Below are positions 26,368 to 58,917 of a stretch of DNA of 64,000 nt, in pieces; the stretch's first letter is position 1, and the number at the start of each line of letters is the position of its first letter. The notes beneath the pieces are model-generated. The model did no database searches, was not told the DNA's origin, and was given only the letters and a program-made list of their open reading frames with translations. The DNA is from Lingula anatina (Eukaryota > Animalia > Brachiopoda). Where the stretch lies: contig CM120644.1 in assembly GCA_051362555.1 (NCBI GenBank), positions 6,890,954 to 6,954,953 of the forward strand. Direction: 5' to 3'. The position numbers and the translations under genes were made by a program.

Positions 26368-26656
26368 ATGTCAGATAATGATAGACTACCTGTTAATGTT
26401 CTGGTGGTCAGTAATGTTTCTAAAGCTAGAACATTAACGTCGGTGGTCTTCGGACGTGTTTTTGGAACTAAAAGAGAAAGGCGGGAAGATATGCTAGCCT
26501 CATTTAATAGATGGAGAGAGAAGCATGATGTTCCTGTCGAATTTAACATGAAATGGAGCAATACGGATGATCCAGTACCACCAGAGCACTTTGATATACT
26601 TGTAAAAGAGGATTGGGATTTATTCGTTGTTCAGGGTACTAGTAAATACAGTGCAG
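26368..26656 (+). CDS. Paralogue A exon 1 (unknown N-terminal domain)
   Basis: ATG in a good context (GCCAAGATG) and donor CAG|GTAGGT. Homologous to 50192-50423 (PVxVLV...LxASFNxWREKxxVPVEF). Confidence 0.75.
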
Positions 26657-29600
26657 GTAGGTCTACATGAACCTTTTTCCTTATTTCAGTTAAAATTGTA
26701 TATTGATCATGGTACATTTTTCGTGCAGTCCAGTCCGATAAACCAAACGATTTTTTATTCTTAAATTGAATTCATTATTCATAAGAAGCACGTCGGAAAT
26801 AATTAATAAAAAAATAGATAAATGATATAAACACTGTATCCGTAATAAAGGTATTATAAAATAAGTTCGATCATTACTGTCTACAGGTACCCAATGATTG
26901 CTTTGTCATGTACTGGCATAAGACGTAAACTTACTGGGTATTACATTTCTTAAAACATCCTTAAATTAACTTACATAATTTATAAACCTAATAGTTTCAA
27001 CAAACTATATATGAAGTGTTAACTTACACGCCGTTGTGAATAATCTTGCCCTGTCTTGATATCAACTTGACTTTGACTTTGCAAACTATAATAACGTGGC
27101 ATCTACGCATAAAAAACACACCCTATTAATATATCACTAGGTGCACGTAACACACTTTCTCTCTACTAGTATGTGTCTGACCCGGCCTACACATTGCCCA
27201 GTACTAAAACACTTGTATAAATTGACAAAGCAAATGACATGTAGTCCTACTATCAAAACGTACAGGTTAGGCCTACATGTGCGCGCTGAATTTTTATCAG
27301 CGCTCCGTCAGTTTCTTTAAAGGTACATACGAACCGAGCATTGGTGGAGCGTGGATTCGCAGTAACACATGTAAACCACTTCTCTAGATTCTTATATGAC
27401 CCAAATAAATTCGACGTGCCAAGGGATAAACTGATTAGATCACTAGATCAGCCATAAAATACCTTAAGACTGCTCCTTTCTTTAAATTTCGGTTGTAAAT
27501 TTAACCTACTTTCGTGACCTACTTTCCTGCCCCATTGACATACAGATTAGAATGCCAGAAGAAAAATCCGTTCATACATCATTTTCGGGTAAAATTAAAC
27601 AATGCCTTTTGGAAATTCTCTTAGTTATACTACATGTACTTGAAACTATATGGTGGCATTTGGTTGGTTTTTGTGACAAAAGTTGACTTTGTATGCATCT
27701 TTAATTACTCTACTATATCTTTATATGTTAAACCAAGGAGTTATAACAGAAGGAGATTACACGCAAGCCTCTCTTTTGTCCGATGTCTGTTACGGTGGGC
27801 GGAGCTAGCTACGGGGGGCCTCCTGTCTCAAGGTTTCGTCTGCGTCGCTCTCCTCAGCTTAGAGATTAATTTCATATGCGTTATTTCGCGTTAGAATTCG
27901 AGATCAGTAGTGTCAGAGCGGCGCTGTATGCTGACGATTTTTTTCACAAATAATTATTTGGACGATGTGCTGGAAGGGAACGATATCATAGAAAGCGATT
28001 ATAAGGTGGTGACTGAGGATGGTCACCATGAGTTTTTTTGAGTCGGTGATAGATGGCTTTTTTTTTTGCACAACCCAGTGAAAAATCACCAAGGAGAAGT
28101 CAAAAGAAAACGTCCCAACTGTGGTTTGTGAAAATGACATTCAAGTGAACGTCTGTCCTCACTGCCAAAAGACATTATATGAATACATAAACGTTTGGAC
28201 CCTCCTGCCCTTGGGTCCCATAAACATATACATTGTGACAATGCCTAAGCGTTGTGACTGGTTTTAAATTTCTTTAAGTATTTTTTCTCTCACTCGGTAT
28301 AATTTTAATATCATAATGCATTAAAGTGAAATTTTAATCAAAGGTTGAGGCAATGCCACGATATGTCAGTTTACTGAATACTCGTTATAAATTTCTTTAT
28401 CTTGGAAATCTCCCTTTTTTCAGGATTATTTTGACACATACTTACACTGTTCATATTTGTCGGTAAACAAGTGCACAGTGCTAAACATTAAGAATAATTT
28501 TTATTCATTCATAAATATATTTATGTACAAAATATATCAGAAATTTTAGTTTTAACTGAGCTCTTTAAAGTGAAACAAATAAAGATGAGAATTTTGAATT
28601 TCAAACTATTATTTACTATATTTACTTAAAATATCTTATATGTCAACTCTATACTCAAGCATCATGATAGTAGCATCTGTGAGTAAAACCATTTTATTAT
28701 ATCAATAGAAGAACAAAAACAAAATTTTACACATAAGCCGTCATAATGAAGTCATAAGAATGATTAAGTTGCTACAGTTTTCCAGTTTTATGCAGTCTAT
28801 GTTGGCATTTTTTTCAACCGTGCAAATAGAAATAATTATATTCTTTTTTATCTGACTTGCTGATACCAGTCTGTGCCAGATACTATTCCACTCACAGGCC
28901 AGCAAGGTCTGAGAATCTAATGGGCCATTGAAAAAAATCCTAGAAGATAAAATGGCTAATTCCTGCAAATAGGATAAAAAACATGGGATTTTCAAAAGGT
29001 TATAGATCAAGACAACACTTAGTAAGAACATTTATAAAATGAACTGGAGTACATGTTATAGCTGAAAAAATTAACTGGGCCAGTAAATGACTGCTTTAAA
29101 GAAATTTCACTGAAACAGTCCAAATTTTACTGGCAATCAGGTAGACTGTTATACCATGGCACTTAACAAATTATATATAGGTTTTGATTTTTTTCCATGT
29201 GACAGTAACATAAAATTTATGTCCACTTTTGAAATGTATAGAGTCAGGTGACTAAAAATATTTTAAAATGTCATGAAGGATCACTATTAATTTAATGTAA
29301 TCTCTGTTGGCCAGTCTTATCCAGTTTCTTCTCCAAAAAGGACAACTCAAGTGAGAATTTCTTCAGGGCCTTTTCTTCTGCCTTGCCAATGCCATGCCAC
29401 TCAGAAAAGAGAGAAACCTGTAGGTTAGAAAAAAAACATAATAATAGCATTATGAACTAGTAGTATCCATGTAGACATTATGGAATTACGCAGTGAAGTT
29501 TAATGTGTCATGTTATGACTTGACTGAAATAATGTTCACCACATAAATGAACAATTTACAACTAAATTTATATAGAACATCAAGATTCATGATCACAAGC

Positions 29601-32600
29601 TAATTACCCCAAGAAATTGAAAGAAATTGTACTTATTACAAGAAATTATTTAAATCCGCCCTAGTTCCTACTCTTCTGATAGGACAAAAAGGGGATTTCA
29701 GAGAGGCTGGTTGCTAAAAGGAAAATGCCCAAGATTGTTGTATTTTGAAAAAAAAATTAAAAAGGGTACTGTTGTTAGTGAATGTTTAATGCATCGTAGG
29801 CATTATGACAAAAGTAACTTACTCCGGACACACTGACCTCCTTTTTTCAATGACATTTTTTAATTTTTTTCCAGCCTGACCATAATTCATACAAGGTATA
29901 TTCAATGCAGCCTTCTTCCATATCTATAATAGAAGAAAAAAATGGGTAGTGTTAAGATATGCATGTCAGCTTCATTATCTATTTTGAGAGAATTTCTGTT
30001 TCAGCACTGCAAGATGAAATATTTACTTTCAATGAATAAACCTTAATAGAGTTCTATTCTTTTGTAACCACCAAGGCAAAGCTTCTTTCTTAAAATGAAC
30101 TGAAACATCCAAGCTTACCACCTAACATGCCAAAGTAGTGAAGTATAGTTAAAGTAGAGAAGCAAGTACCCCTTAAATATAGAGGTGTCTTACACAATAA
30201 GGTGTGTCTTACACACCTTGACTCAAAGGGAGATGTGTAGTGAGATAACAGGTAAAGTAATTGGTGGAGCCTAGGTGAACTTAAAACCTTAAGACTTCAA
30301 ATTAAGAAGCACCAGGATTCATGTGTGTTCTTTTTTCAAATGTTTAATATGAATTTAAACATATATATGTAAAAAGAAGACTAAATATGTTTAAAATAAC
30401 TATATCAAAGACACTGTGAAGTCAAACTTCCTGTTAGACCGCCATGATGGAAAATGCTGGGTGGAGCCAAAATTTTTCCGGTCAAAATAACTGAGCACCT
30501 TAATCTAACAACAAAGTTACCACTCCAAAGCCACCCACCTTGGTGAGAAGAAAAATGATGACCAACTGTCATGATAAGTTTTTTTAGTTTTAAACACGAA
30601 AAGGTACAGGCAAAAATGGTACATTTACCCATAACACTAAAGTAAAAATTGGTATTCTGAACAAAACGGGTTTTTTTTTCAAGAAATATTGGAGCAATAC
30701 CCATGCGATATATACCAAGCCAGAACCAAGATGTTCAAGAATCTAAACACACCAATCACGCATTTGAAAAGTGCAAAAACGTTCGGGCTTTTGGCCGTAA
30801 CAAGTGTAAGTTTTTGATCTGGACTCGTGAAAATTGGCCCTTGTCGTATTCAAGCTAGAATACATATAAAATCGAAAAAAAACAACAATACTCATCAAGA
30901 AAATGTATTGCACACACACACACCAATAACTTAAATTTTATGACTGTCATGTGACACAAGTATCAAAAAGTAGGAGGAAAATGTCTTTTGGAGTGATTTT
31001 TTTTCGAAACATAAACAAGATGGCGGCTTATGCATCTGCTTGTTATTCGGCTACTGAAAGTGCACTGAAAGTTTTATTCTATGCTGTTGCCACAAATTAC
31101 TTAACAATTGCAACTGTATAAAGACCAAAATTTCTTCATCTGATACTATATTTATAAGCACTTGTTATGAGTGGGAAATATTTTTCGTGCAATATTTATT
31201 CTCCACACACCACCTCGCAAGATCGACGTGGAGCTGGATACTTACACAGTGAGACCCTACGTCATAAAAGTTGCAATTTATATTCATATTTCGAGTAGTT
31301 ATGCATTTAAAAGCACTTACCTGTTTTTTGATAACCTTATCCAACGTTATATCCTCTGCACTCTGTACTTCTCTCATTTTAACAAACTTTTGAGTACGTT
31401 TCTGTTTGTGTCCTCTCGAAATGCTAGACGAAGGCACCTATTCTGACAAACGAGATTTAAATGAGAGGGTAACAGAGATAGGCACCCATTGTTCTCTGGG
31501 TTCTATTCATTCCGACCAATGAGAGACCGTAAAACGGGCTCCGCCCCCACGCGCTTAATCTCCTTCTGTTATAACTCCTTGGTTAAACATATTACTTAGA
31601 TCGCATTCACAACGAGTTGAGCCAGGCTTTACAAATATGGAGAACTAAATATAGCGGGCGTACATGAAAGAAAAACCGCCTAATCTTTTACTGGCAGCAC
31701 GAGCCAGTTACTTATACAAAGCTGTAATTAATTCTCGGCTGTGCTCGCATTCTATAAAATCTCATCCTCCGTTGCCGCATCGCTTGCCGTCGGATCATGA
31801 CGGTTGCACTCGTATATGTCGTCTGTATAGCTTCTTCATCTTCTTCGTCTTGTTGTTGCACAAAATCGACAAACACATTTTTCAAAGCAACCGCGACCGC
31901 CATTAACTATTTAACTCCCAACTGCGCATGCGTCAAGGTATCAGAATCTCCTCCGAGCACAGCCGAGAATTAATTACAGCTTTGGAAGTAACTGGCTCGC
32001 GCTGCCAGAAATTACGCCGCGGGATATTCAGGGCACAGACCGTGATCACAAGATATACCGCGAATAGAAAATAGATTTTTAGAAAATAGATTTTCCATGT
32101 GAACGAAGCCCAAAATCTGTAATTAAGGGCTCATGACTCAAGAACAAAAATAATTAAAGCTGTCTCAGTGGGTTAAGCCCTTAATTTAGCAAGAAAATGA
32201 ATCTTTTTGGAAACCTCACCAGTTTTCCCATAATGGCCAAGGTACGTCTTATCCAAAACCGTTCAGAAAATGAAGCTACCTAAATACCGCGCGGGAAAGA
32301 AAAGCAACACCCTAACTCTCCTTCGAAACCCGGCTAGTCTCCTTCTTCTATCCGTCAAATTCTTCCTCTTCTTACTTGAATCTTCCTTCGACGACTTTGG
32401 GTTAAATTTGATGTTCCAAAAACAAACACGCGAGAAAAAAAACCAGAGTGCCAGAAGAGCAATGATTGGGGACATATTTTTGTTTTCGTGAATTCTGCGC
32501 ATGCACGATTCTTCAAACCGGAACCTCCACCTGGATTTTTCAGTGCACGATTCGGTTTCCATTTGCTGTGTGCGGCCAGAAAACCAAATTGGAATTTCAC

Positions 32601-35600
32601 TCGTAATTCCCATTGCACAAATTCGGATATTTCAAATTGTAGTGTGAACGGGGTATAAGACGACTTGTCTCAAATACTCAGCTACCATCTCACAGTACGG
32701 AGGATTACTCCGAGGATTACTCGCCGAATCAACTGCCTACATGCCCTACATCAAAATGTACCAAATTGGACAATTTTGGACCGATGCCTGGAATAATATT
32801 CCCAATTGAACTCTAAAAACCTAGGGCGCATTCCCAGAGCTTTTAGATCGATCTATCCCCGCGGGGAGTCTCACTAGTTTACTGTCAGATAATCCGGCTT
32901 TATTGTCCGTCCCGCCTACTACAAGCTGTAAGGGACTAATTAACTTTCGTGTCCGCTCGGCTGACAGATATTTAGCATGAACCCCCAGGGAGTTAGGTCG
33001 ATCTAAAGTAGATCGATCTAATCTCTGAAAATGGGGTCCTAGAGTTTTTCAAATTATCATCTGTGAAAGAGTTATACACCCCACAAAATACACTCATATC
33101 AGTGTCTAATCACAGCAACAGTCGCTGTTACGCCTGACCTCATCTGGTTGCTACCAGGGCTCTCAAGCGGCAAGGCATTCTTTGGGATAGGTTTTTAGAG
33201 TTTAATCTGAATAACATATCAGGCATCGGTAAAAACGTAAAAAAGTGCCCTGTGTGAATTGGCAATCTGATCGTGCAATCTAAAATTGTTCCTTAAATGC
33301 CCCCTATCAAATGATAGTCAATTGGTTCCCATTTTTTTCTTTTATTTGATATGGTTCAGGTTTTCATCGATGGTTACCATTGGTGTTTTGGCACCAATGT
33401 GGTATCCACTCTAGATACTGACGCTGTCAGTAACCTTAGTCACTTAAGACGCAGCACACGCTTCGGCGTAGGCCTCTTCGAATGTTAGAAAACTATGTTT
33501 TGTCAATTTGAGGGGTACAGGTGAAATCTGACCTCAATAGAGAAAGCCAAGCAGTTTCAGTGTTCTACCCAGTCCCCAAGTCAGCATACAGACGCCGATG
33601 TTTTGTTGTTTACAGTGGCTTCCTCAGAGGTCTTCTGGTATTCTAACCTGCTAAATCCAGTTTGGTGTTCGCTAAGGGCCTTGCTTTTTGTTAAGCATAT
33701 CCGGAAGGATAGTGGGTCCTGTACCCTGGTGGTAGGATTTTAATACATTAGTTGTGATCTCTGTGCAGGTGCATCAGTTTAGGCATAGCTCTATAAAACT
33801 GAGCAGACCTTTCCGCAATAATCTGTTTGGTAATGTGCGTCTTTTTCGCGCCATTCTGGCACAGATTAGCAATTTTGTAAAAATACTGCTTAAGGCACTT
33901 AACGCCCTGAAAAACCGGCCGCTTGCATGCAAAATGTCAAATTCTTCTATGCAGCAGTTGCCGTCATATGGATACTTTTTTTAACAAAACCATGCTTCAT
34001 CAAAGCCAAGCTTTGACCAGACCAAAGAAGCACTACACAATAAAAACAATGCATATATTTGCACAATGCAGCCGTGCAACAGACATGGTAGTCATTTAAT
34101 TGGTAGCCACAGACTTTACGTCACACTTCTTTTTCATATCTCATATGAGATCTGATTTAAAAAAGAACCCGTTTTTACCTAGGCATACCTTTGAAACTGA
34201 AATATTCTATATTAAATGTCAAGTCTGTGCCTTTGTACATGCATGAAAAACCTCATTTTCAGTAACTGGGTGATAATAAAGGATTACAATACCATTAACT
34301 TTACTTTTACGCAATGGCCTAACTGTTAGGTGAGGTCCTTCAACATTTACGTAATATACTGCATAGATTTTGGTTACTATACTCCCCTTATCTTTATTTT
34401 ATGCAGCATCATTTTAATAGTGCTCATTCACTGTACATATATGATACATGTCGTTAGATATGAATTGAACGACTAGCAGATCTGGGAGCATAGATCTATG
34501 GACTGTTTATTATACAGCTACCTCACGAATGGGTTAATATATCTTACTGGGTTATGTTGATCTATAAATTAAGATTAATTCTTTAGAATTTTATCAGTGC
34601 GCTTTTGTATTAAACCATTAGAAATATCATCAAGCCTTTTAATCATTCTCTTTCACTTTCACATTCTCAGATTTTACTATAAGATGGGGTATTCATAGGT
34701 TTGACTTCAGTGAAAGTAGGAGATTGGTCACGATAAGATCACGCACTGATGACGATCTGCACTGGGCGCTGGATCATTGGTTTGTAAACAAGCAAACGGA
34801 GATAAGCTCTCGTTTAGCTACCCTTCCTCAATATGAAAGGCTATTGCTTGAAAGAGAAGCTTATAGAAGTATTCAGGCGTGCAGGGAGAAAGCAAATCCA
34901 ACTGATTCAACAACTTTAGACATCGTCAAATGTCTGGAAAAGGTTATAAGGCGGTATGAATGTGCTGTAAGGGAAAAGGATGTCAAAATGGTTGACATGC
35001 AAGGTACTATCTCATTGATGAAGAACGAGATTGAGGGAAAGGGGGAGAAAATTAAGGAAAGTATCTGTCGTCTACAAGAGCAATTACAAACTAGTAAAGA
35101 GCTTGAAAAGACACATGCCGCCGAACTAAAGGAAAAGGTGGAAGAAATAGATAAAATGCGTTTAATCTTCTCAGAGATGAAGAAAGAGATTGAGAAGAAA
35201 GAGGAGAGAATCGAAGAAATTACAGAAGCAAACCATCAAATGAAAAAACTTATCAGCCAGCTACAAGAACAAGTGCAAATCAGCAGTGCAGAACTACAAA
35301 AGAAGGAAGCGTATGAGTCAGAAATTCATGAACAGTTATCAGGAATGGAGAAGAAGATGGCGGAGAGAAACAAAGAAATACAAGGTATGACCAACACACT
35401 ACATCAAAAATCACAAAGAATTGACAGTCTTCAAGAGAAGACACAAGATATGCAAGAAAAAATCTATCAGTTAGAAAAAGAAATAGAGCGTGTCATGAAA
35501 GACAAGTACGATCTAGAGGCCAAACTTGCACAGTGTCAGGAGCTATCCGACAGTTATCAGGCTGCTTTAGTCTCCCTAGCTGCATGGAATCAACAATTGA

Positions 35601-38110
35601 AGGACATGGAAACCAGGCTAAAGAAAGACAACGATGAGGTAAGCACATTCTATATACATGGCATGCTATTGTATTTACACTCAGTGTGTATTTACGAACT
35701 CTTAATTTTGGACACAACTGGGGGGAGAGGTTAACAGAGGCTGACCAAATATAACTTACTCCTAGACCATCATGAATGATGCTGGTTGGTAAACTAGTGA
35801 GATCCTTTCTGTAATGAGAGAGGAACAACTATGTGATAAGCATTCTGCTGCTGCTGCTGCTGCTGCTCCGCCCATTCAGCCCAAGGGCGAAGGATGATGG
35901 CGATGATGATGATGATGTATTTGCGTTTAAACTGTGTAATTTGTGTAATGATATATATTCTTCATGAATACAACTGTGTGTATTAATAGTTTCTCCATCT
36001 CTCTCTCCAAATTAAGGTGCAGAATGTGCAGTTATGTTTCATTACATCACTTTTTCAGAACACAGGACAATTGTTAGAAACGGTCGACCAAATTTGGCAT
36101 GGACAAAAAGAGGAGGTTCTTTCTTCCATTGAAAAAATGGGGGATCGCGTGATAGGCTGTCTTGCATCACACGACAAAACTCAGGGATCTGAGGAGTTAT
36201 ATTCACGGCAAGAAAGCGGATATGAATCTCCTTTGGAAGGGGATGCCGAGTTAAGAAATGTCTGCTGTTTACTATCAAAATGCCTAGGTAAGTAACCCTT
36301 AATAGGGGGGCACGGCGATACTAAAATGTCAGTGTTCACAATCTTGTTTTATTATACCGTCATAATGAATCAAACAATGTAATACTCCTGCATTTTAAAT
36401 GGAATATATAATGTGTATTTCAGGTGACTCGTGGCGTGAACTGGGCAGAGAGCTTAAGATAGACACGCGCTGCCTTGACGCCATTAGCGCACGGTATGGA
36501 CAGGTCGGAGGAGCAGAACTTGTGTGGGCTGTCCTTGAGAAGTGGGCTGAACGGGGAAATCCTACGAAAGAGGGTCTGTTACAAGCTGTTGAAAACATTG
36601 GACAGGAAGCTATTTTGGGTTAGTACTATAGTGTATAAATACACTCTCTATTATCCATTACCCTACCGTTACGTGCGGTATTTTGGTGTAACTTTTCTAA
36701 GAAATCATCCCAAGCGAATAGATATTCCCCTTTTCGCTAAAAATGTTCTCCCTGCGCTACTAAATATAATTATTCTCACAAGTTTTCTAACATCGTATGT
36801 GTCAAGGACTATTTTTGGTCAACCCAATTGATATCAAGATGTAATCTGAAAGTGTCCAATAATACAATAATGTATAAGTAATGGTTTTATGTTGTATAGG
36901 GCCGCCCATGACTGATGACCATCGTGACATGCTCCAAACCCTCTATCCATACCTACACAAAGAAATGATGGATGTGGAACTGCTCATGCCTTACCTTAGA
37001 GGAGATAGAATCCTTACCAGCTCTCAGATAGAGGTGATCCAACAAGGTCGAGGACGATTTGGGAAGATTGAAAAGCTTCTCAAGATGTTACCTAACTTGG
37101 GATGCAGGGCATTTGATGGTTTTGTGCATGCTTTGAAACAAAGTGGTCAGATGCACATTGCTGAAAAATTAAGAGGTGAAAAATAAACTCATCCTTCAAA
37201 AAAATTCTCATTGTTCTTTCAATTTTCTTTTAAAATTCTAACGACGTATTATATTGTATTTAAAAGTGTAACGCTTCTTTATAATCGTCCCAGTTTTTCT
37301 CGATCATAATGCCTTTTTAAGTCCAGTGGCAGTTTGAAAAAGTTTAAATTGAACAGATAATAAATATCCCCTTTACTGAATAAAAACCTCCGTCTATCTA
37401 TTCTTTAGAAGTTGAGTCCAAGGAGCCCTGTGTCGTTGAAAGTGTTGAGACAGGGGGCGAAACTGTACCCAAAGTATCCTCAGAAGAGACTGGTGTCAAA
37501 GTGGTGGAAGGTATGTCAATTGTCTTAAGAAGTATCTTAAAGTAATAATACATGTATATCATCATTATATCTGTCCAATGTGTAGCCCAGTGACAGACAG
37601 GAACGTTCTATAAAACATGTATATATGATCACAGTGCATTGTTTTGTTTGATAAACTTTTAAAGATAAAGTGCATAATTGAAAGTGTTGTATTCAATAGT
37701 CCCCACCCCCCCCCCAAAAAAAAAAAAAAAAAAAAAAGAAAGAAAAAGAAAAAAAGAAAAAAAAAACCTTTGTGTTGCTTTCCTATTGTTGGGAAATGAG
37801 GGTGTCACACTTATCCACGTCCTTTTTAAACGTTGGACGTGCACACGTCTCCATGGGATGACAATGTGTAATTCTGTTATCAAAGTTTTTAACTCGTTAC
37901 ATGCATGACCAAATTTTAAAAATTAAATTTTCTCCTATAGGCAGCACCTCCTGTGATCTGCAAGTACATAACACCAAAGTTATTATGCAAAAATTATCCC
38001 TTCTTGAGCGTTTTGTAAAACAAATCGACGCCAAAACCGGCCGGATTGAAGGATATATAGACGAGAAAAACACAACTGTCAGACAAACATCGACCAGCGA
38101 GGAATCTTAA
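26368..38110 (+). CDS. Paralogue A: unknown N-terminal domain + coiled coil + Death domain + CARD protein; 7 exons, 742 aa
   Basis: Exons 26368-26656, 34671-35638, 36059-36287, 36424-36618, 36900-37175, 37409-37510 and 37941-38110, all GT-AG and phase-consistent (2229 nt, no internal stop). Death-fold motif LGDSWRELGRELKI...VLEKWAE...TKEGLLQAVENIG. CARD motif MDVELLMPYLRGDRILTSSQIEVI...KIEKLLKMLPNLGCRAFDGFVHALKQSGQMHIAEKL. The exon 1-2 join across an 8-kb intron is inferred from phase and from paralogue B. Confidence 0.82.
27734..31581. mobile_element. Non-autonomous TIR DNA transposon with 7-bp TSD (P/Galileo-like) in intron 1 of paralogue A
   Basis: Perfect 26-bp TIR CAAGGAGTTATAACAGAAGGAGATTA at both ends. 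Flanking direct repeat GTTAAAC at 27727-27733 and 31582-31588. No intact transposase was seen. Confidence 0.85.
31690..32111. mobile_element. Foldback MITE; a related partial copy lies in inverted orientation at 25825-26000
   Basis: Internal inverted arms at 31691-31748 and 31954-32008. The segment 32000-32105 is the reverse complement of 25830-25935. Confidence 0.65.
32780..33230. mobile_element. GATCGATC-family MITE (32825-33039) nested in another inverted-repeat element
   Basis: Inner copy closely matches 25002-25216. Outer arms read ACCGATGCCTG..AACTCTAAAAACCTA / TAGGTTTTTAGAGTT..CAGGCATCGGT. Confidence 0.7.
34671..35638 (+). CDS. Paralogue A exon 2 (end of N-terminal domain plus long coiled coil)
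   Basis: Polypyrimidine-CAG acceptor, open 968-nt exon with E/K/Q-rich heptads, donor GAG|GTAAGC. Confidence 0.88.
36424..36618 (+). CDS. Paralogue A Death-domain exon
   Basis: GDSWRELGRELKID...LEKWAERGNPTKEGLLQAVENIGQ; phase 1-1 exon. Confidence 0.85.
36900..37175 (+). CDS. Paralogue A CARD exon
   Basis: CARD-like six-helix pattern ending LLKMLPNLGCRAFDGFVHALKQSGQMHIAEKL; phase 1-1 exon. Confidence 0.88.
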
Positions 38111-46671: not shown

Positions 46672-49600
46672 CTGCAAGCTATTATGAATAGTGCTGGTGT
46701 GGAAGATTAGGTCATAAGTAACAAAACTATATAGCTAGTGTGGGTGGGATAGAGCATTTTATTTTACTTTTTATGCAAAATAGTCATAAAGGGAGACGTT
46801 TACTCAACACTTTTGGTTGTGCAAAATGTACTTTCATGCCCATTAGAGGGGCTTCAGTCAAGCCACCCTTATGTGTAGAGGTCTATTACAGCATGGGTCT
46901 CTATATTAAGTAGGAGCCATCACAATGTACATCTGCTATTTAGATAATTAATATAACTTTGAATATCTGAAGAACATTTTACATTTAATCTTTCTTGATC
47001 CTAAGAAATAAGAATCAAAGTATGATATACTTACCGTATTTGGACTCTATTTCCTATCCATACCCCCCCCCCCCCTTTATTTTTTGGATAGCTAGCATGC
47101 ATTACATGAAAATGACTTTTCTTTTTTTGGTTGTAATTGAAAATATTTTACTGACTCTAACCCCTATTTTTCTTTCAAAGACGTACATTTTATTTTTGGT
47201 TGTTCTTTTTGTACAAAAGTTTCACTGTATCTGCCTAGCCATCCTATGTAAGCATGTGGCAACTACCTCATGACAGGAATAAACATGGCCGCCTGCTAGC
47301 ATATGGACTGAAAATGTCCCTATTTAGTTTGAGTACATATCGAGCCCAACCCTCAGACAAGCTGATTTTCACATATATCTCACCTTATATTCATATCTTT
47401 TCAACCGTGAATACTTACAGGTAGCTTGTCTGAGGCAGGGGCTCATATAAAAAATGAACATTTTTCATCCTCAAGTCACTGTAAGAGTCTTCTTTCAATC
47501 AGCACCACATGTATAAATAAAGCAATCCATATATTGATCACAAGCAGTGATTGACTACTTATTGCCTTTCTTTTTTACACAGGCACCTTCTGTACCCGAT
47601 TACAAAATTTCACAGTTGTCACCTCACTATATCTAAAGATATTATCTAAAGCATTACAATACAGCCCCCCCCCCCTAAAACACACATTTTCAAGAATATT
47701 TGACAAGGTCATTTTGCCATTAATTTTTTATATTTCAAATTCAATAAAAAAATTTTTATGTGGATCATAAAAGTGTAAGACCCCAACTTTAATTTGGCAT
47801 CAATTTTTTTCATTTATTCACAATTTATTTTTCATGTACAAAAGTGGGCACTTTTACCCCTTATTCGCACTCATCCTTTACACCACAAAACTGCAAGATA
47901 AAGACTATGCGTCAGACCAACAAGGCGGACTAAATGCTGGTAAATAAAACTTGTTGAAATGTAAAGAATGGGCGGCATCTTGTCATCTTCTATGCAGTTA
48001 TCAGTTTGTCTACTAAGTGGATTTTATAGATATATATCCAGTTTAGTAGCATAGTGGATCATTTAAGTAAAACGAAAACAGTGAATATGTAATTGTAATA
48101 TGAATTGCTTATGTACAAAAGGAAATTAGTGTTCAAGTTTTGTTAGCTGTGCACTAAAACATTTGACCCAAAATTGCAGGAATAGCAAAGTACGAGCTGC
48201 TCCAAGATGAATATCATTTTATATACATGTACAAACATGTAATTAACAAAGCTTTGCTTGGTATTTTTCCTGGTACCACTTAAGTTGAATTTATAATTTC
48301 TGCAGCTCGTGTCAAAAGGGGAAAAGTCTGCAGCTTTCGCAAGCTTTTTTTTACCCCCATGTAAACTTCACAATGCTGAATAATTCATTGTACACCGAAT
48401 CACTTTGCATTAGTTCCACGCGCTTCTATATTGTACATGTTCCATGATGCAATTTAATTTTATATAAGCCAGGAAAAAAAAGAAAAAAAGTGTTCGCGAC
48501 TACGATATAAAAGGTAAACATTGTGAAAGGGCAGCAATTAAAAACGCAGGGATGTCTGTTATGGGACTTTTACGTACCAGTGATAAGATCTACACCAGGC
48601 TATGCCTGTTAATTATATAAGTTTGACACCCGTTGTGACAGGAATGGAGTCTGGGGTCCCATATGATTACTACAGGTTAGGGATATACATGTATATAGTC
48701 GGAATGTTGGGGTTAGTACAGGTATATTGGACGAATGTCACCTGTACAAATTAATGGGGGACTGGACTTCAGTTCATGGCGGACTGCCATTTCTGTCACG
48801 CCGGGGCTAACGAGACAACAAAGTGACACGACTGAATCAATCCAGAAAAGACCATATAAAAAGAAACAACCGACATACAATATGTTGGGGCACTAACAAT
48901 GTCGAACGGTGTAACACCTTCAATCAGATGAGAGATGATCTAGCAAAAAGATTACCTCACAATATAACCAACAGGGTCGACAGAATACAGCATCTGCTGC
49001 CTGGGACATATACAGGAAATTAATTTATAAAAATTATCCTCTGCGTCGAACCAAAATATACTGTGCCAAAATTGAGAACTATCAAACCTGACAAGACATT
49101 CAAACCTTAATTGGCTTTTTACTAAACTTGGTCTTATAAACATATTGAACTTTTGGATGTCGTCATAGTACTGCATGTTGTTTCATCTCAACACCTTTAA
49201 TTGACAATTATATTAGTTTTGTTCTCGTATTCACTGGCATGAAATGAAAAAAGACGACATTGTGGTCAAAGTGAGTGGCAGGACATGTATGTATATGTTT
49301 GACCCGTTCATGAACATACCAGTCATTGTTGACGTTCCCTCTTAGAGAGCCGCAGATTGCTTTTTTCCCTAGATATTCACAGACATTTCTTTGGAAACCC
49401 ATGACACATGTCTAACGAGGGTTTTGGTATACCATTGTTTTCATCACTCAGATGGCCTTCACTATATCCTTGATGAACGGTACCTGTTGTACCCGCACTT
49501 GGCTCTCTTTCCTTAGGCTCAGAAAGTATCTGGCAAGGACACAGTACGGTGAAATCGCATACGAATTTCTTTTGACATCGTTAGTAACCTCGGGCTACGG

Positions 49601-50009: not shown

Positions 50010-50130
50010 TATCACGTGATGTTTACATAAACCTTAGTTGGGAAATTCCGGTAACTATTCACGTACCTACGCTTTACAGTATATACCTGTTTTGGAATTT
50101 CCGTAACTGCGACTTACTTTCAGTTTTGTA
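50010..50130 (+). promoter_or_regulatory. Paralogue B proximal promoter with an E-box and two NF-kB-like sites
   Basis: TCACGTGA at 50012-50019, GGGAAATTCC at 50040-50049 and TGGAATTTCC at 50093-50102. An IRF-like CTTTCAGTTTT lies at about 50117. Confidence 0.55.
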
Positions 50131-50191: not shown

Positions 50192-53100
50192 ATGTCGGTT
50201 GATGAGAGATTCCCTGTTAAAGTTCTGGTCAGTCCAAGTCTTACTAACGCCACAGGCAAAATGACCCAGACTGATCTGATTGCATCATTTAATGGATGGA
50301 GAGAAAAGTACGGTGTTCCCGTCGAATTTTCCATGCATGTTACAGATGATCCTATTCGAAGAAAAAACTATGATATAGTGGTATACACCCAAACCCAATA
50401 TAGAGGTGCAAACGATGTCACAGGCATGTTCCTAAAAATATGTAGTGCACAGATTACAAACTATGTTTGATTATTTTAGGGTCCCACATAAAGAAGTTTG
50501 TATTAAAGTTTCACTTTCCTCGAACCACGAATAATACAAAATAATTCATCATCTAACCCCAAAAAGGAACATACGTTACTGTCACAAATGCATAACGTCT
50601 AGCTGTTGAAGCGTTTTAATCACTTTGAAAATTCAATCATCACGGGTTTTGTTCTTTAATTTATCTCCTACAAGTATAACGTTGTAAAAAATTATGAAAA
50701 GCTTTTGTATAGAGCAGTTAATTGTTTTTTAGCGACTTAAGTTTGCCTGTCACTGAATATTAAAAAAACGGGGAAAATACACCCTACCGACAGTAAAATA
50801 AGCATTTAATAAATTAATTTTCCCCTCGTGCTCCAAATATTATATCTGAAATGTCAACCTATCATGGAATCACTATATATTTTTCTGTCAGCAAAAGAAA
50901 ACATTGTTTTCTCTTGCACCAAGTACTTGTACAAAATGAAACATTTTGTCAATTTTCCTAGGGAACATACGTTACCTAGTATTAGCTATGACGCAGGCCC
51001 CATTAGTTACGGTTTAAATGTTTATAAAAAACGTCCTTACGTCATATTTAATTTAACATGATCGAATCACTTTAAAATATATAAGAACACGTTATGAAAA
51101 GAAAAATTAGGTGGCCCGGAACATACGTTACCGGAACATACGTTACCAGTGAAAATCTACTTGTGCCCGAAACTGGCTCCGAAAGAAAAATAAGCTTCTG
51201 TTTGAGATGTCAGGTGGTTCTTTCTGACGTCTGCTCGAGCTAAAGATTAGATGAGGTTAGTTACATGTGTAAATAAATCCATAAAATCCTCAGTAACGAT
51301 GTAAGCGAAGTGAATGATTTTGTCGTAATAACAAATTTAATTCAAATACAGAAATGAATGTCAAAGACGGAAATAAATGTCAAACAAGACTATGGAAGGA
51401 AAAAATAATCGCCAACGAGCGCAGTGAGCACAGTGCAAAATACATTGATACCGAACGGAACATCATTATTTCAGAAAAATTCGAAAACAAGAGCTGAGAT
51501 TTAAAAAAAATATATCGATCTCTTAAAAAAATGAGGGTGACGCTTATTTGGAAGCGAAAGAAAACGGGTTAAAAATACTATGTAGGCCTACCTTCCGCCT
51601 CCTTATAAATGTCGTGAAAGACAAAAGAGGCATGCGAAGACTAAATCGCGAAAACGTAGACTTCACCAAAGGAAAGAAGAGCTCCTAGCTGCTATAGAAG
51701 TTGCCGTGGCAAGTCCACAGCAATCACCACCTGAGAGACTTGTTGTGTGTGCGAGGTGGCCACAACGTGGAAACGATTGAGAAGAAACTGAAGGCAGTCA
51801 CAATGAACAATTAAAGAACTACAATCACAGGTTAATTCCATAAGAAAGAGGGAGAATGCTATCCGGCAACGATTTAGCCATTGTAGAAGACGAAATACGG
51901 AACCACCTGAATTTCCCACATGCCCCAAAATTAAGACAGAACGCATCATACAGCAGGCTATAGACCCAAGCTAACACTGTGCAGAAGCAATTACTTTTAT
52001 GTCTCCTCCATCCCAGTGTACCACAAACTTTCATAGTCTTATTTATAACAAAAAGAAGGCAACAAAGAATATCGATTTTGTCAAACAAGGCCGCTTTTAT
52101 CTTATAACCCCACTACCCTAATTATTTTAGCAATAATAACAATGTAGCAAATTGTTGCCTTTATCCTTGGATAAAAATAATATTATATATATACATATAA
52201 TATTCAATAAGACTCATCATCCTAAAAATATGATGACTTATAGAAAATGTTTTTTTAGCTACAGTGGGTCAAGTTTAACGAGTTACACCAAGAAGTTAAT
52301 GAACATTTTGCATAATATAGTGGCTGAGAAGATTGCGAAGACGTACCGTTGTCTCAGATTTCTTTCCGCTGCTACTGGCATTTGCCTGAATCGTTGGTCG
52401 AGAACTCGCGAAAAGGGGATGAACTGCTCGAAAAGTCGACGGATGGGAGTAGCAGGAAAAAAAGGCAAGCTGTATACATTTTTTGAACGAGACGACTATA
52501 GTAGAGCCCAAGAGCGCCAGTAACCAAAAAAAAAAAAAAAAAAAAAAAAATCATCCATCACGTTGGCACAGTAAAAACACTGTATGAACATCTAAGAAAT
52601 CTCAAGGAAACTTTTACAAGAAATCATGCAGCCTATAAAATGTCTTAAATAGCGACTGATGAGGACCGTAGAGACCCTTGAACTCTAAAGTGATACCTGT
52701 TTCTTATACCCACTCAGTGGAAAGACTTAAAAACGTAATTTTGTGAGCCACTAACTTTTTATAGATGGAACAAACATTATATATATATACATATTTTTTT
52801 AATTCCCAAACGTGGCGAAATCCGCAAGACAATTTAGACCTTTCAGAGAGGATAGTAAAGCTCATTTTGAACGAATTCTCTGATGTATTTGAAAACCTAA
52901 AGGTGTGTTGAAAAAGGCTTCGTTTAAAGAGGTGGTAGGTTAGATGTTTCTGGGATCTGTATTTTTTTACATGCAAATGATTGAGACGTTTGATACGCGG
53001 ATCGTGTTTGTGTAATAGGTTATCACTTTTGATGTCTGAGTTACTTTTAATTACCTCAATAAATTCTACGAAAAAAAGCGAAAAAATATCTTATCAATAT

Positions 53101-56100
53101 TTATTAAACTCGTGCTCCATATCTTTTCTATGGCTGTGGAACATACGTTACATTACGGTATGCGAAGGATGCGAGGCGTAGTTGGTATTGTAACTAATAC
53201 ACCCGAAATTTGAAACTGTCAATGAGTTTTAAATTGATGACGAATATGACCAGTGGTAGATAACTTTTAGGTAAAAAAGTTTTCAATTCTCTATACAATT
53301 GACAATTACTGCCATTGAAAGAGTCATCAACGTGGACATTTTCATGAAAAATGATCTTTAGTTTGAAAGTAATTTTCCTAGATCTGGTCAATATAAATGT
53401 ATTTTCCCATCACTTTTCCATTATTAATGACTCATAGGGTTCTGATAGTGTTTAGCTTGCACAAAATTCCACAGCGTTCAACTAATGATCGTGTTTGTAT
53501 CAGGCGATTCAGAGGTAACGTATGTTCTTTCTTACGCTTTTTTCACTACAAACGGCTATCAATTTATTTGCTTACAAAACAGAAACGCGTGGGCGTAAAA
53601 CTGGGACATTTGTGGATTTTTGTTCTATACACATGTAAGTTTTAAAAAATTGGATAATACATCGAATTCATTCAATTTCATTTTTTGAGACTTGAACTTG
53701 TGAAATGCACCTATTGGGTTTGGGTGTATATTGCAACACTTTAATGATGAAAGTATTACACACTGCGATCCAAAGGGCAGGTACTTATGCATCATACAGT
53801 ATACTTATTTAGCATACATTGGTTATATAAATCATTCTATTCTCTTCAAGTTCCTTAATTTGAGCTGTTTTTGACATGCTGGTAAATGCACTCATACGTA
53901 TGTATGTACATGAAACTTGATGTTGTGTAACATGCAGGCCTGATTACACATTTTGTTGAAACTTTAAAACATTAAAAACTATCTAAGGGGCCCGCGCATG
54001 GTGAGCATTCGGCGCGCGCCACTTGCGCTGCGCCAGATGCTCGCGCTCCTCAGCTCCCGGCAAACGCTGAGCTCTTTGCTCAGCAAAGGTGCCTCCCGGC
54101 CTGCCCCTAGCGGACGCACTGTGAACTGTGGGATCATGTGTTTAAGGAAACGTTACATATTGTTGTTTTTCTCATAGTAATGGATAATGGTGACCACGTT
54201 AATCAATCAGACTAACTATAACTGTGTACATTTTTGTTGACTTCGCTGGGGGCTGCCATTTTTGTTTGTTTCCGGCTACTGGCACACGCGCATTGTTAGC
54301 ATGGCGTGAGCAATCGGCGCTTGCACCCCGCACACGCTGAGACGTTTGCCTCAAGAGACCAAAAAAATCAAACACGTGAGAAATTTTGCTCAGCCGCCCG
54401 TGAGGCAAAAATCTCACCAAAATACCCCCGCACACGATGAGAAAACGGCGCAGCGCAAGTGGCGCGCGCCAAATGCTCACCGTGTGCGGGCCAGTTTTTT
54501 TCTTAGAATTTATTACAAATTTTCTTTGTTCAGATTTTACTATATCCGTCGGTGTCTCCGATTACTGCAGCCAACGCACTGAAGACGAAGGGCATGCTGC
54601 AGTAGAATCGTGCACTGATGACTCCGTACACTGGGCATTAGGACGTTGGTTTGTAAACAGAAGCACAAAGATTAGTCCACGCCTAGCTTCCCTTCCGTAC
54701 TATAAAGTACTATCACTTCGTATAAAAACTGATGCTGTCCTGCAGTCTTGCTGTCTCAACCGATCAAAAGCGGAACATGATCAAAACGAAGAAAAACATT
54801 TCAAATTCTTGAAAATTTTGGAAGAGTGGAATAAACTTGTAGTAGAATTCAAAACAGATAATCGAGTTGTAAGAAGCTTTGTCAGTGAACCAAAGGAAAA
54901 GTTGACGAAAATAGATGAAATGTGTGGCACATGTGCAGTTTGCCTGATGAAGATTGAAACTAGGAAAAGGGATGAAAAAATCGAAGAACTGACGAAAACA
55001 AACAACCAGAGTGAAAATTCCATCTGCATCCTACAAGAAAAATTACAGGCTACCAGCGTAGAACTAGAGAAGAAGACACTGCAGTTAGTTAACGTTAGTG
55101 AACAGCTGGAGAAAGTAGTGGCCGAGAAGGACCAAAAATTGCAAGAGAACACCTTAAAACCTGATAAAAAATCACAAATAATTAACGCACTTCAACTTAA
55201 AATACAAGACTTGCAAGATAAAATTTGGCATTTAACAATTGAAAAACAGCGCGTCAAAGATAACAAGTACGACCTCGAGGTAGAACAATCAAAGTGCCGT
55301 GAACTTTCAGTCAAATATAAGAATGCTTTGGCTTCCATAGCCGCTTGGAATCAACAGGTGATGGACATGGAAGCAAGACTAAAGAACGAAAATAAAGAGG
55401 TAAGTATATCGTATTATGGGGTTTGTTTATCTTTTTATTTTTACATTTGGTGCAATTTGGTGTATATATTTACATTTTTAAATATTTTAAAATATACGTG
55501 ATGGAAAAGATGTAAATGATACATGTCATAAGTATGTATATAAGTATCTATTTATCTGTTGGTTGGAGAGGGAGCGGGGAGATTTCTGGAAAAGAAAACT
55601 GAATTTTTACGACATGCTTGTGCACAACAAGCGAACAGTAAATAAGGTGGTGCGTGTGATTATCTGTGTGCGCATGTGTTTGCGCTTGCCTTAGTTCATG
55701 TACTAGTTCCCTATGCCACAACCCTGAAGCCAAATGAGCGTCCAGTCAAGGTCAAGAAGGAAATGTCATTCTGTTTTGTTCCACTTTTCTGTTTCAGAAC
55801 ACAGGACAATTACTAGAAACAGTCGACCAAATTTGGCAAAGAGAAAAAGATGAGATTCTTTCTGCCATCGAAAACATGGGTGATGATATCATCGAATGCC
55901 TCAAGTCACGCGGGGAACATCGTGATACGTCGTATTCACAAAGAAGAGAAATTAAACCTCTCTTTAAAAAATATCCCCATTTAAGGAATATCTGCCTATC
56001 ATTATCAAAAGGTCTAGGTATGTAATAAAAGACACATACACTGTAGCTTTATTTGGTAATACAGTCTGTGTTTACAACCCAATCATACTGCCAATTTTCC

Positions 56101-57334
56101 TGTTAAAATTTTTGGTTTATATTTCAGGCGATTCTTGGCGTGAATTGGGCAGAGCCCTTGGAATGAGCACTGGATGCCTTGACGAACTTATGGCACGCTA
56201 TGGAAAGTTTGGGAGTGCAGAAGTCGTCTTCGGAGTTCTTGAGAAGTGGGCTGAAATGGGAAATCCTACGAAGGAGGGTCTGTTGAAAGCTGTAAAGGAA
56301 ATTGGCCAAGAAGCTATTTTGGGTTGGTATACTTACACATACCCCTGTATATATATTTTTTTATTTAGTCACGCAGTCACGCATGTCACCTTCTTTATAA
56401 TTTTAAATCTCTGTTTGTGTAAAATCCGCCTTTATATCAATCGTATCCGGACTTAATAATATAATTTGTCAAGTTGTCAATTATAATGTACAGGTCCTCC
56501 CATGACCGATCAGCAACGTGAGATTCTCCAAGCTCTACGCCCATATCTACACGAAGAAATGATGGATGTCGAACTGCTCTTGCCTTACCTTAGAGGAGAC
56601 AGAATTCTTACTAGCTGTCAGATTGAGATGATCCTACAAGATCGGGGGCGCATTAGGAAGATTGAAAAGCTTCTAAAGATGTTACCGAACTTAGGATGCA
56701 GGGCGTTCGATGGCTTTTTGCATGCATTGGAACAGAGTGGTCAGGTGCACATTGCTAAAAAATTAAGAAGAGGTAAAAATTAATTATTTATTCTTGAGGA
56801 TTACAATTCTTCATTTCAGGCTTTTTGCCCAACGATTAGTTATGCTTCACTAAAAATGGTATCAAAATGTTTAAACGGTCGGCACTTGTATAGTGTACCT
56901 ACTTAACCTGACAGGTCTTTTTAAAACTTATTCTTCTTAAACACATTCCTGTAAGTACAAGAACCTTTGTGTTTAATAGCTGCCATTGCTCAAAGTCACA
57001 TATTACTGGGTTAAGAAAAACATTAGAAATCAGGCTTTTAACAAATCTGTTACTTCATGATTTCCCCTTTATCCCCTAATTGTTTATCTTTATCTCAGCC
57101 ACTGAAACCCCACTTATAGTGGAAAAAGTAGTCATGTGTGTTGTCTACAGGGAAAATGCAATTTCTTCCTGTGCTGAATTAGATTCTCTAATTAGAAGCC
57201 GAGTCAAAGTACCCTCTTGTCCAAGGCAGCATTGAGAAAGGGAGCGAGAATGAGCAGACTGGTGTCAAAGGGACGGATGACGGTACGTCAATATTCGTCT
57301 CGTATCTCATGTCTAATATCTCATGTGCTTTAAG

Positions 57335-57382
<48 letters not shown>

Positions 57383-58917
57383 TATAACTTATATATATAT
57401 AAAAATATATATATATATTAAAAATGAAAACGTTTTTCCTGTACGAGTAATATTATATATAATAAAAGAAAAAGAAGAACAGCAACTTTCTTGCCCCGAC
57501 CGGTTTCTTTCTTTCTTCAGGGGGTTTTGTTTATTTGTTACTAGGTGATGTCATAAAGGCTTAAATGTGACGTCTTTAACAATGAGTGTTTAATTGTTAC
57601 TTTTACCAATGCTTTTATCTATTCAATGTAGGTTTATACTTATTAATGAATAGATTTTCTTTTATTTCCCTTTCTGTTTGGGTTGTTTCCCTGGTGAATT
57701 TATAAAATGGGAATACCGTAAAATCCTTGTTTTTGTTCATAGAGCATTCCCTAATGTGCCCACTCACAGACGTGCACTGATATTTAGGTTGTCTTATTTG
57801 TTGTCTGTGAACGGTCATTCTATGTCGGAGAGTGTCTCCAGTTTGTCCTATATAGTTCTCACCGCATCCACTGCAAGTTAATACATAGATTAAATTTGAG
57901 CTGGTGCAGGTGAATGGGTGTTTGATTCTGAATGTAAGTCCATTTTTAAATGTTATATGGCTCCCCTCTTTAATTAGTGGACAGGTGCCACACCTGGGTA
58001 CCTCACATTTCTGTACTCGTATTGTTGAGGTTTCCACATATGTCCTGGAATTGTTTTCAAATTTTGCTTTTGTTAAAATTTGCTTTAGTGATGGACTTTG
58101 TCTCTTACTCTTTATAATCTGCATTTCGGTTAGTATCTCATTCATTTTGTCATCTTGTTTTACCAAAGGTAAGTTTCCAGTTATGACCTTATGTATTTCC
58201 GGATTTTTTGGATTATATGTTGATATGTACGGTATGGCTTCCTTTTTAATTTTAATTTTGTCTTTGGTGGTCCTCAGGTCGTTCTTCAGTATCTGTTTTG
58301 CCTTTTTAATCCCAGTTTGTATCAGTTGTCTTGGGTATTGTCTCCTTAATAGGAATCCTTCCAGCTCTTTGAGCCTTTGTTTTAATGTGGTTTCATTTGA
58401 GACAATTGTGCATAGTCTTCGAGCTAGATTGTATGGTATGTTGTGCTTAATGTGCCTGGGATGACACGCGTATATACGCGTAAGCCAGTGGCAGCCAAGA
58501 AGGAAGGAAGATTACTGTTATCCACATTTTTTTAAAATTTAGGCACTGATAAGTGCATGGAGAACTACCAATGGAAAACAAGCACATAACGCCGTTTCTT
58601 AAGGGGTTTACAACTGTGCACTTTGATTTAAAAATGATGTAAGGGTGCGTTTAATATGGGTGAGTTTTATATAAAATGTCATATGCTATTATAAATTATA
58701 AAACTTTTTTCGAGTTTATATAAAAATAAATTATTTTTCTCCTGTAGACGACGCCTCGTGTGATGCACAAGAATTGAGCACTAAAGGCAACGATCAACGG
58801 ACAGCCGATATACTCCATATCGTAACACAAATCGACGCCAAAGCTGGCTGGCTTGTAAAAGTTGTAGGCGGGAGGATGGCATCCCACAGAAACACACTGA
58901 GCAGCGAGGAATCTTAA
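50192..58917 (+). CDS. Paralogue B: unknown N-terminal domain + coiled coil + Death domain + CARD protein; 7 exons, about 676-682 aa
   Basis: Exons 50192-50423 (GC donor; a GT donor after 50405 is an in-phase alternative), 54534-55399, 55798-56017, 56128-56322, 56494-56772, 57196-57282 and 58748-58917. Exon order and phases match paralogue A and the frame is open throughout. Both proteins end in SEES*. Confidence 0.8.
50560..53720 (+). mobile_element. Decayed DNA transposon (Sola2-like N-terminal transposase remnants, tentative) in intron 1 of paralogue B
   Basis: Broken coding remnants at about 51490-52600 (RAEI.KKYR..KNEGDAYLEA..; FFERDDYSR). The motif GGAACATACGTTAC recurs at 50566, 50962, 51118, 51133 and 53138, and inverted at about 53515. 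Ends are uncertain. Confidence 0.45.
53989..54492. mobile_element. GC-rich MITE with TIRs of about 46 bp
   Basis: GGCCCGCGCATGGTGAGCATTCGGCGCGCGCCACTTGCGCTGCGCC and its inverse. It ends about 40 nt before the exon-2 acceptor of paralogue B. Confidence 0.8.
54534..55399 (+). CDS. Paralogue B exon 2 (coiled coil)
   Basis: Starts DFTIS (A: DFTIR) and shares TDDxxHWAL.xWFVN and KYDLE...AAWNQQ..DME.RLK with A. Donor GAG|GTAAGT. Confidence 0.87.
56128..56322 (+). CDS. Paralogue B Death-domain exon
   Basis: GDSWRELGRALGM...LEKWAEMGNPTKEGLLKAVKEIGQ; 195 nt, the same length as in A. Confidence 0.85.
56494..56772 (+). CDS. Paralogue B CARD exon
   Basis: About 80% identical to the CARD of paralogue A by manual count (18 differences in 91 aa). 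Confidence 0.88.
57420..58465 (-). mobile_element. Second Penelope-like element fragment (RT thumb plus GIY-YIG) in intron 6 of paralogue B
   Basis: ORF with C..PRCGTCPLI, FTCTSSNLIYVLTCSGCGENYIGQTGDTLRHRMTVHRQQI and REIKENLFINKYKPTLN. Upstream in frame: HPRHIKHNIPYNLARRLCTIVS. The left boundary is approximate. Confidence 0.88.
57494..57524 (-). ncRNA. Ultra-minimal hammerhead-like motif
   Basis: Minus strand reads CCCC-CTGAAGA-AAGAAA-GAAACCGGTC-GGGG: intact core, palindromic stem III ACCGGT, GUC triplet, 4-bp stem I and no paired stem II. Confidence 0.55.

What the first reader, a model, noticed from the sequence alone, without database searches (positions are those of the whole stretch)
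26368..58917. Tandem family of [unknown domain]-coiled coil-Death-CARD proteins: candidate undescribed innate-immune or cell-death sensor-adaptor system
Seen: two intact 7-exon paralogues plus a decayed third copy, with a domain order of N-terminal domain (about 140 aa), coiled coil, Death domain, CARD and a short tail. Established: Death and CARD domains nucleate signalosomes. RAIDD/CRADD is CARD-DD with no coiled coil, CARD9/CARMA proteins are CARD-then-coiled-coil, and NLRs use a NACHT domain for oligomerisation. I know no characterised protein with this order and no enzymatic or NTPase module. Inference: a lineage-specific receptor or adaptor in which a variable N-terminal domain senses, the coiled coil oligomerises, and the two death folds recruit caspases or kinases.
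Basis: partly seen in the sequence, partly recalled or inferred. Interest (0 to 1): 0.8.

Follow-up and report, generated by a model that had tools for sequence, protein, structure and literature searches.

The report
Brachiopod coiled-coil Death-CARD adaptor family
Two intact neighbouring genes, likely of a lamp shell (Lingula), each encode an unrecognised head domain, a long coiled coil and back-to-back Death and CARD domains, and they likely act as immune-induced scaffolds that would cluster and pass signals to cell-death proteases, a layout already listed for a sponge protein but not tested in any animal I found.

Summary
Genes A (26368-38110, 742 aa) and B (50192-58917, 682 aa) have seven exons, identical intron phases and no stops. 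Pfam finds Death in exon 4 and CARD in exon 5, after about 250 aa of coiled coil. RNA reads of relatives (mostly under 95% alike) support five of six joints; exon 1-2 is untested. The third copy is only a broken 470-bp piece of exon 2. The only true protein relative found is Lingula anatina XP_013381545 (Death-CARD-ZU5...CARD), which shares only the Death-CARD-linker cassette. New here: both genes keep an aligned NF-kB-type site 84-90 bp before the start codon, and Death-CARD is under stronger purifying selection (dN/dS 0.22). The head domain has no detected relative and is no more variable than the coiled coil (0.49 each), so a variable sensor is unsupported. The order X-coiled coil-Death-CARD is already listed for sponge LOC109590195 (Kaur 2021 supplement). 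Best reading: an inducible, non-enzymatic death-fold scaffold; main rival: a feedback decoy. The scan had not noted this family elsewhere. New variant of a known kind.

The parts
26275..26284 (+). NF-kB-type site GGGAATTTCC, 84 bp before the ATG of gene A
   Evidence: aligned with the site of gene B; consensus pattern recalled; function untested
26368..26656 (+). Gene A exon 1: first part of the orphan head domain (aa 1-96)
   Evidence: no family or relative found; low RNA depth; joint to exon 2 untested
34671..35638 (+). Gene A exon 2: rest of the head domain (to about aa 150) and the coiled coil
   Evidence: RNA coverage and joint to exon 3
36059..36287 (+). Gene A exon 3: end of the helical stalk, linker, inferred first helix of the Death domain
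   Evidence: joints; no relative
36424..36618 (+). Gene A exon 4: Death domain
   Evidence: Pfam PF00531 28.8 bits; only solved hit FADD DD, E 0.04; joints
36900..37175 (+). Gene A exon 5: CARD, abutting the Death domain
   Evidence: Pfam PF00619 44.8 bits; solved CARD hits RAIDD and CARD8; joints
37409..37510 (+). Gene A exon 6: acidic linker, shared with L. anatina XP_013381545
   Evidence: joint 5-6
37941..38110 (+). Gene A exon 7: tail and stop
   Evidence: loose end of 11 reads from exon 6 carries 16 letters of this exon
50040..50126 (.). Gene B upstream motifs: NF-kB-type sites at 50040-50049 and 50094-50102, IRF-type site at 50116-50126 (minus strand)
   Evidence: consensus patterns recalled; the IRF pattern alone is not above chance (8 of 100 shuffles)
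50192..50423 (+). Gene B exon 1 (GC donor)
   Evidence: no RNA test
54534..55399 (+). Gene B exon 2: head domain end and coiled coil, 34 codons shorter than in A
55798..56017 (+). Gene B exon 3
56128..56322 (+). Gene B exon 4: Death domain
   Evidence: Pfam PF00531 E 0.0005, 20.6 bits; 47 of 65 residues identical to A
56494..56772 (+). Gene B exon 5: CARD
   Evidence: Pfam PF00619 50.7 bits; 74 of 92 residues identical to A
57196..57282 (+). Gene B exon 6
58748..58917 (+). Gene B exon 7: tail and stop
60622..61091 (+). Broken fragment of exon 2 (distal coiled coil), closer to A (79%) than to B (69%), with stops and frameshifts
20356..20574 (+). Duplicate of gene A's upstream region with the NF-kB-type site in three tandem copies and no exon 1 behind it

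Best explanation
These are two intact members of a spliced multigene family, likely Lingula-specific, whose products likely work as NF-kB-induced, non-enzymatic scaffolds: the coiled coil would cluster the chains, and the clustered Death-CARD pair would seed or bridge death-fold assemblies that recruit CARD caspases or adaptors. Shown: gene structure, domain order, splicing of relatives at five of six joints, no transmembrane stretch, no Walker A or caspase motif, strong constraint on Death and CARD, and an aligned kB-type motif before both genes. Inferred from established mechanism: multimerised CARDs nucleate downstream CARD polymers (CARD-CC/BCL10), and two-death-fold adaptors such as RAIDD link a Death-domain partner to a CARD caspase. 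The likeliest downstream partners are the CARD caspase-Y paralogues (six reported in L. anatina) or CRADD; this is untested. The head domain is most likely a docking or autoinhibitory module rather than a diversified sensor.
For: Intact frames and shared phases. Death and CARD hits. Exon-restricted coverage and joints in RNA from several related transcripts. dN 0.135 and dN/dS 0.22 (0.14-0.35) over Death-CARD against dN 0.42-0.49 in the other four regions. GGAATTTCC sits at aligned positions before both ATGs. It occurs at 7 places in the window (14 strand matches, 1.9 expected, 0 of 100 shuffles), and 6 of the 7 are in three homologous upstream copies. No hydrophobic 19-mer above 1.13, no Walker A, no caspase motif. 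The cassette is shared with an L. anatina ZU5-CARD protein. L. anatina has six caspase-Y paralogues, and brachiopods have CRADD and FADD but no APAF-1 (PMC11463336, passages). Activated CARD multimers nucleate BCL10 (PMC9342958, abstract).
Against: No partner, polymerisation or induction was tested. The three kB-bearing regions share ancestry, so they are not independent; the strict pattern GGGRNWYYCC alone is not above chance (5 matches, 16 of 100 shuffles), and other upstream blocks are conserved too. Only 7 of 384 laid reads are 95% or more like gene A, and X1, X4 and X5 show no depth on A's exons 2-6. The exon 1-2 joint is untested. A kB-induced protein with death folds and no enzyme can equally be an inhibitor.
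Confidence: 0.5

Rival explanations
1. Inducible feedback decoy: the proteins are made after NF-kB activation and cap or sequester Death and CARD assemblies, as CARD-only proteins and cFLIP do in mammals (recalled).
For: kB-type sites; no catalytic motif; strong constraint on the death folds fits a binder of fixed host partners; low basal expression.
Against: A 250-aa coiled coil and two intact death folds suit multivalent seeding better than capping (inference). Several family members are expressed together (different loose ends at the same places).
Confidence: 0.25
2. One reading: the head domain recognises a microbial or danger ligand and varies between paralogues for that reason; binding releases the Death-CARD output.
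For: The head domain has no detected relative. It carries insertions between A and B, and reads of another member diverge just before its conserved HW motif (loose end at 34760).
Against: It diverges no faster than the coiled coil (dN 0.49 against 0.48; dN/dS below 1). Its helical block 34722-34843 is among the best-covered parts of exon 2 in reads of relatives, so it is conserved across the family. The head carries no repeat-type recognition module.
Confidence: 0.15
3. The head is a degenerate TRADD-N (RRM-like) adaptor domain, which would make these genes members of the known marine-invertebrate TRADD-N expansions and point to TRAF recruitment.
For: TRADD-N+coiled coil+Death(+CARD) is listed for sponge, coral and amphioxus proteins, and L. 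anatina has 31 TRADD-N proteins in that table (PMC8195603 supplement). The head appears mixed alpha/beta in a low-confidence model.
Against: No Pfam family hits either half at E up to 10. No tiny-residue-Ser turn is shared by A and B at the expected strand turn (the only aligned AS lies in the predicted first helix). None of the Lingula rows has this order.
Confidence: 0.12
4. Truncated offshoots of a longer Death-CARD-ZU5-UPA-CARD gene, now drifting or doing a non-immune structural job.
For: XP_013381545 carries the same exon 4-6 cassette followed by ZU5 and a second CARD. The tail evolves near neutrally (dN/dS 0.91, 0.52-1.62). The region holds broken and orphan pieces.
Against: Both frames are intact at dS about 0.8, and Death-CARD is constrained. 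Exon 7 is not detectably a ZU5 remnant (628 and 706 of 2000 shuffles score as high), and no ZU5 lies in the window. Exon 6-7 joins are transcribed.
Confidence: 0.1

Closest known systems
Lingula anatina LOC106152482 (XP_013381545, 786 aa; uncharacterised, automatic UniRef name 'Netrin receptor UNC5')
   Same: Death-CARD-linker cassette, 134 of 192 residues identical to A (70%), starting at the exon 4 boundary
   Different: The annotated model has no head domain, coiled coil or exon 3, and continues into ZU5 and a second CARD instead of the short tail. Its 5' end may be incomplete; this could not be checked.
Amphimedon queenslandica LOC109590195 (XP_019861674: DED+TRADD-N+coiled coil+Death+CARD; Kaur et al. 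2021, PMC8195603, Figure 4-source data 1)
   Same: Order head-coiled coil-Death-CARD, similar length (671 aa), no enzyme, part of a lineage-specific expansion in a sessile marine animal
   Different: Its head is DED plus TRADD-N; ours matches neither by Pfam. No sponge protein was recovered with our CARD (a word-limited search), so the likeness is probably convergent. Annotation only, no function.
RAIDD/CRADD
   Same: Two different death folds in one adaptor; best solved CARD match by sequence, E 0.00015
   Different: RAIDD is CARD then Death, about 200 aa, with no coiled coil (recalled). Brachiopods have their own CRADD homologue.
CARD-CC proteins (CARD9, CARD10, CARD11, CARD14)
   Same: A long coiled coil able to multimerise a CARD; the likely working principle
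   Different: CARD is N-terminal to the coil there and there is no Death domain; here the coil precedes Death-CARD.

Membership tests
Death-fold superfamily proteins | Death domain (Pfam PF00531 above cut-off) | tested here: met
   A exon 4 28.8 bits against 22.6; B exon 4 20.6 bits, under the cut-off when scanned without exon 3, 47 of 65 residues identical to A
Death-fold superfamily proteins | CARD (Pfam PF00619 above cut-off) | tested here: met
   44.8 and 50.7 bits against 23.9
Death-fold superfamily proteins | Homotypic assembly or filament formation | not testable with these tools
   needs experiment
RAIDD/CRADD | N-terminal CARD followed by C-terminal Death domain, nothing else | tested here: not met
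   order reversed, with about 430-480 aa before it
CARD-CC (CARD9/CARMA) | N-terminal CARD followed by coiled coil | tested here: not met
   coiled coil precedes Death-CARD; exon 1 has no CARD hit
NLR/STAND receptors and AIG1/GIMAP GTPases | P-loop NTPase domain with Walker A | tested here: not met
   no Walker A pattern in either spliced protein; no NACHT, NB-ARC or AIG1 hit in the 12 pieces scanned
FIIND/ZU5-UPA proteins (CARD8, PIDD1, UNC5-like) | ZU5-UPA module | tested here: not met
   the ZU5-bearing part of XP_013381545 has no match in the window (best E 2.7)
TRADD-N expansions (DEDD2 and NCOA6 clades) | tiny residue-Ser (uS) turn between strands 2 and 3 | tested here: not met
   definition read; no such pair shared by A and B at a strand turn; strand assignment is by eye
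TRADD-N expansions (DEDD2 and NCOA6 clades) | RRM-like four-stranded, two-helix fold | tested here: inconclusive
TRADD-N expansions (DEDD2 and NCOA6 clades) | Profile match to a TRADD-N model | tested here: inconclusive
   0 Pfam families for either half; the whole domain was not scanned
NF-kB target genes | kB-site-dependent induction | not testable with these tools
   motif present and aligned; induction needs challenge RNA or a reporter

The most novel reading that the evidence does not exclude
The head is a previously undescribed sensing fold, and the family is a polymorphic class of NTPase-free cytosolic immune receptors in brachiopods: ligand binding unlocks a coiled-coil-clustered, rigid Death-CARD tandem that converts a Death-domain input directly into CARD-caspase activation in an animal reported to lack APAF-1.
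Probability: 0.15. Interest if true: 0.72.

Novelty: new variant of a known kind. Interest (0 to 1): 0.42.

Why it matters
L. anatina is reported to lack APAF-1 and caspase-2 and to have six caspase-Y paralogues (PMC11463336), so what activates its CARD caspases is open. This family is a concrete candidate. A Death domain directly abutting a CARD is common in sponge expansions but, in the papers I searched, untested, and A and B give a small construct to test whether it packs rigidly as tandem CARDs and DEDs do. The orphan head may be a new domain. Against this, shuffled death-fold adaptors in sessile marine invertebrates are an expected pattern, so a specialist would be interested rather than surprised.

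Full report
The window is eukaryotic DNA (31-42% GC per 2 kb, with introns and mobile elements), and no whole genome is held for it. The only relative of the CARD exon, 1 of 61 candidates, is Lingula anatina XP_013381545 at 75% identity. The organism is therefore likely a Lingula brachiopod. Notes on other pieces of the same genome say the same (unchecked notes).

Observation. Gene A has exons 26368-26656, 34671-35638, 36059-36287, 36424-36618, 36900-37175, 37409-37510 and 37941-38110. Gene B has exons 50192-50423, 54534-55399, 55798-56017, 56128-56322, 56494-56772, 57196-57282 and 58748-58917. They translate without stops to 742 and 682 aa, with the same intron phases (1,0,1,1,1,1), AG acceptors and GT donors, except one GC donor in B; they are 52% identical over 675 codons. 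Pfam finds Death in exon 4 and CARD in exon 5 of both, B's Death just under the cut-off when scanned alone, and mostly sub-cut-off coiled-coil-type families in A exon 2 (12 pieces scanned, not including exon 6 of either gene or B exon 7). Death and CARD nearly abut. The third copy is a single fragment of exon 2 at 60622-61091, 79% like A, with stops and 8 gap openings; none of the other exons has a third match.

Splicing. At 92% likeness over 26000-39000, only run X7 showed depth on A's exons 2-6, about 0.3-1.3, and repeats crowded the joint table. At 82% likeness over 34600-38250, 119, 159, 88 and 18 reads were laid from X7, X8, X9 and X2. Depth follows exons 2-7, and most intron bins are empty. 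Joints match introns 2 (424 skipped with 4 letters between, 420 net), 3 (136, GT..AG), 4 (281) and 5 (233, GT..AG). A loose end of 11 reads at the end of exon 6 carries 16 letters of exon 7. But only 7 of the 384 reads are 95% or more alike, and different loose ends stand at the same places; read by eye, some resemble B and some XP_013381545. So the family is transcribed and spliced as modelled, in several versions. Expression of gene A as assembled here, of gene B, and the exon 1-2 joint are not shown.

Relatives. XP_013381545 shares the Death, CARD and exon 6 parts (134 of 192 residues with A), begins at the exon 4 boundary, and goes on to ZU5 and a second CARD. Nothing ZU5-like lies in the window, and exon 7 is not a significant ZU5 remnant. 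Exons 4-6, all bounded by phase-1 introns, therefore look like a movable cassette; a fused or 5'-incomplete annotation of the L. anatina gene cannot be excluded. Exon 1, the start of exon 2 and exon 3 found no true relative. The word-based searches are weak evidence of absence. The two halves of the head gave low-confidence models and no meaningful fold match. Its identity stays open, because the domain is split by intron 1 and was examined only in halves.

Selection and motifs. Between A and B, dN is 0.135 over Death-CARD (dN/dS 0.22, bootstrap 0.14-0.35), 0.49 over the head (0.49, 0.28-0.75), 0.48 over the coiled coil (0.49, 0.31-0.73) and 0.49 over the tail (0.91, 0.52-1.62). The head is not singled out as hypervariable. 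There is no transmembrane-like stretch, Walker A, caspase motif or RHIM-like tetrad (patterns recalled). GGAATTTCC lies at aligned positions 84 and 90 bp before the two start codons, B has a second site 143 bp before its start codon, and a gene-less duplicate of A's upstream region has three in tandem. The 9-letter pattern is above chance (14 strand matches, 0 of 100 shuffles), while the strict 10-letter kB pattern (16 of 100) and the IRF pattern (8 of 100) are not. The copies share ancestry and other upstream blocks are conserved as well, so this is suggestive only.

Mechanism. The best reading (0.5) is an immune-induced scaffold: the coil clusters chains, and the clustered Death-CARD pair seeds or bridges death-fold assemblies towards CARD caspases. 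The clustering principle comes from the CBM signalosome (PMC9342958, abstract; PMC11874512 and PMC5978004, passages). Candidate partners come from PMC11463336 (passages): six caspase-Y paralogues and no caspase-2 in L. anatina, with CRADD and FADD present and APAF-1 absent in brachiopods. PMC11508797 (passages) predicts NLR, CARD caspase and gasdermin E together in brachiopods. Rivals are a feedback decoy (0.25), a true receptor (0.15), a degenerate TRADD-N adaptor (0.12, compatible with the scaffold role) and a drifting truncation (0.1).

Comparison and novelty. It fails the membership tests for RAIDD, CARD-CC, NLR, GIMAP and FIIND proteins. In Kaur et al. 2021 (PMC8195603; sections 8 and 11 read whole, passages, and rows of supplement file 4) I saw all 65 Lingula places, none with this order. 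I also saw all 21 'coil+Death' places, 2 of which are Amphimedon LOC109590195 with coiled coil+Death+CARD, and 32 of 77 'Death+CARD' places, all Amphimedon. The order is thus in print as an annotation, in a class of lineage-specific death-fold expansions of sessile marine animals. Seven literature searches listed no paper on the brachiopod family, and the scan had no look-alike. Verdict: real, a new variant of a known kind with an orphan head domain; interest 0.42.

Noticed in passing
window 13913-19586 and 21342-22214: A Polycomb RING finger (BMI1/PCGF-like) gene, named from recalled sequence likeness and not confirmed (no Pfam hit on single exons); its likely last exon is duplicated at 89% identity.
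   Followed up: partly
window 18857-20537 and 21342-26285: A tandem segmental duplication just upstream of gene A; the second copy is interrupted by a reverse-transcriptase element at about 22214-24619 on the minus strand.
   Followed up: partly
window 27723-31592: A 3.9-kb stretch bounded by 37-bp inverted repeats (97%) inside intron 1 of gene A, with strand-biased RNA reads mostly 90-95% alike; likely a DNA transposon expressed from other copies.
   Followed up: no
window 41646-42599 and 57615-58511: Two GIY-YIG-bearing, likely Penelope-type retroelement pieces on the minus strand, the second inside intron 6 of gene B.
   Followed up: partly
window 62313-62693: DDE_3 (Tc1/mariner-type) transposase fragment.
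   Followed up: no
window 37176-37186 and 56773-56783: In both genes an in-frame stop lies three codons past the exon 5 donor, so skipping that splice would end the protein right after the CARD; no such isoform was shown.
   Followed up: no
window 36900-37175 and 56494-56772: Synonymous divergence is lower in the CARD exon (dS 0.53) and the tail (0.54) than in exons 1-4 (0.77-1.24), which could reflect gene conversion between paralogues; not tested.
   Followed up: no
window 44589-48522 and 61128-63853: Sequence behind the broken fragment resembles the spacer in front of gene B (72-81% in several pieces), so another family member may follow beyond the window's end.
   Followed up: no
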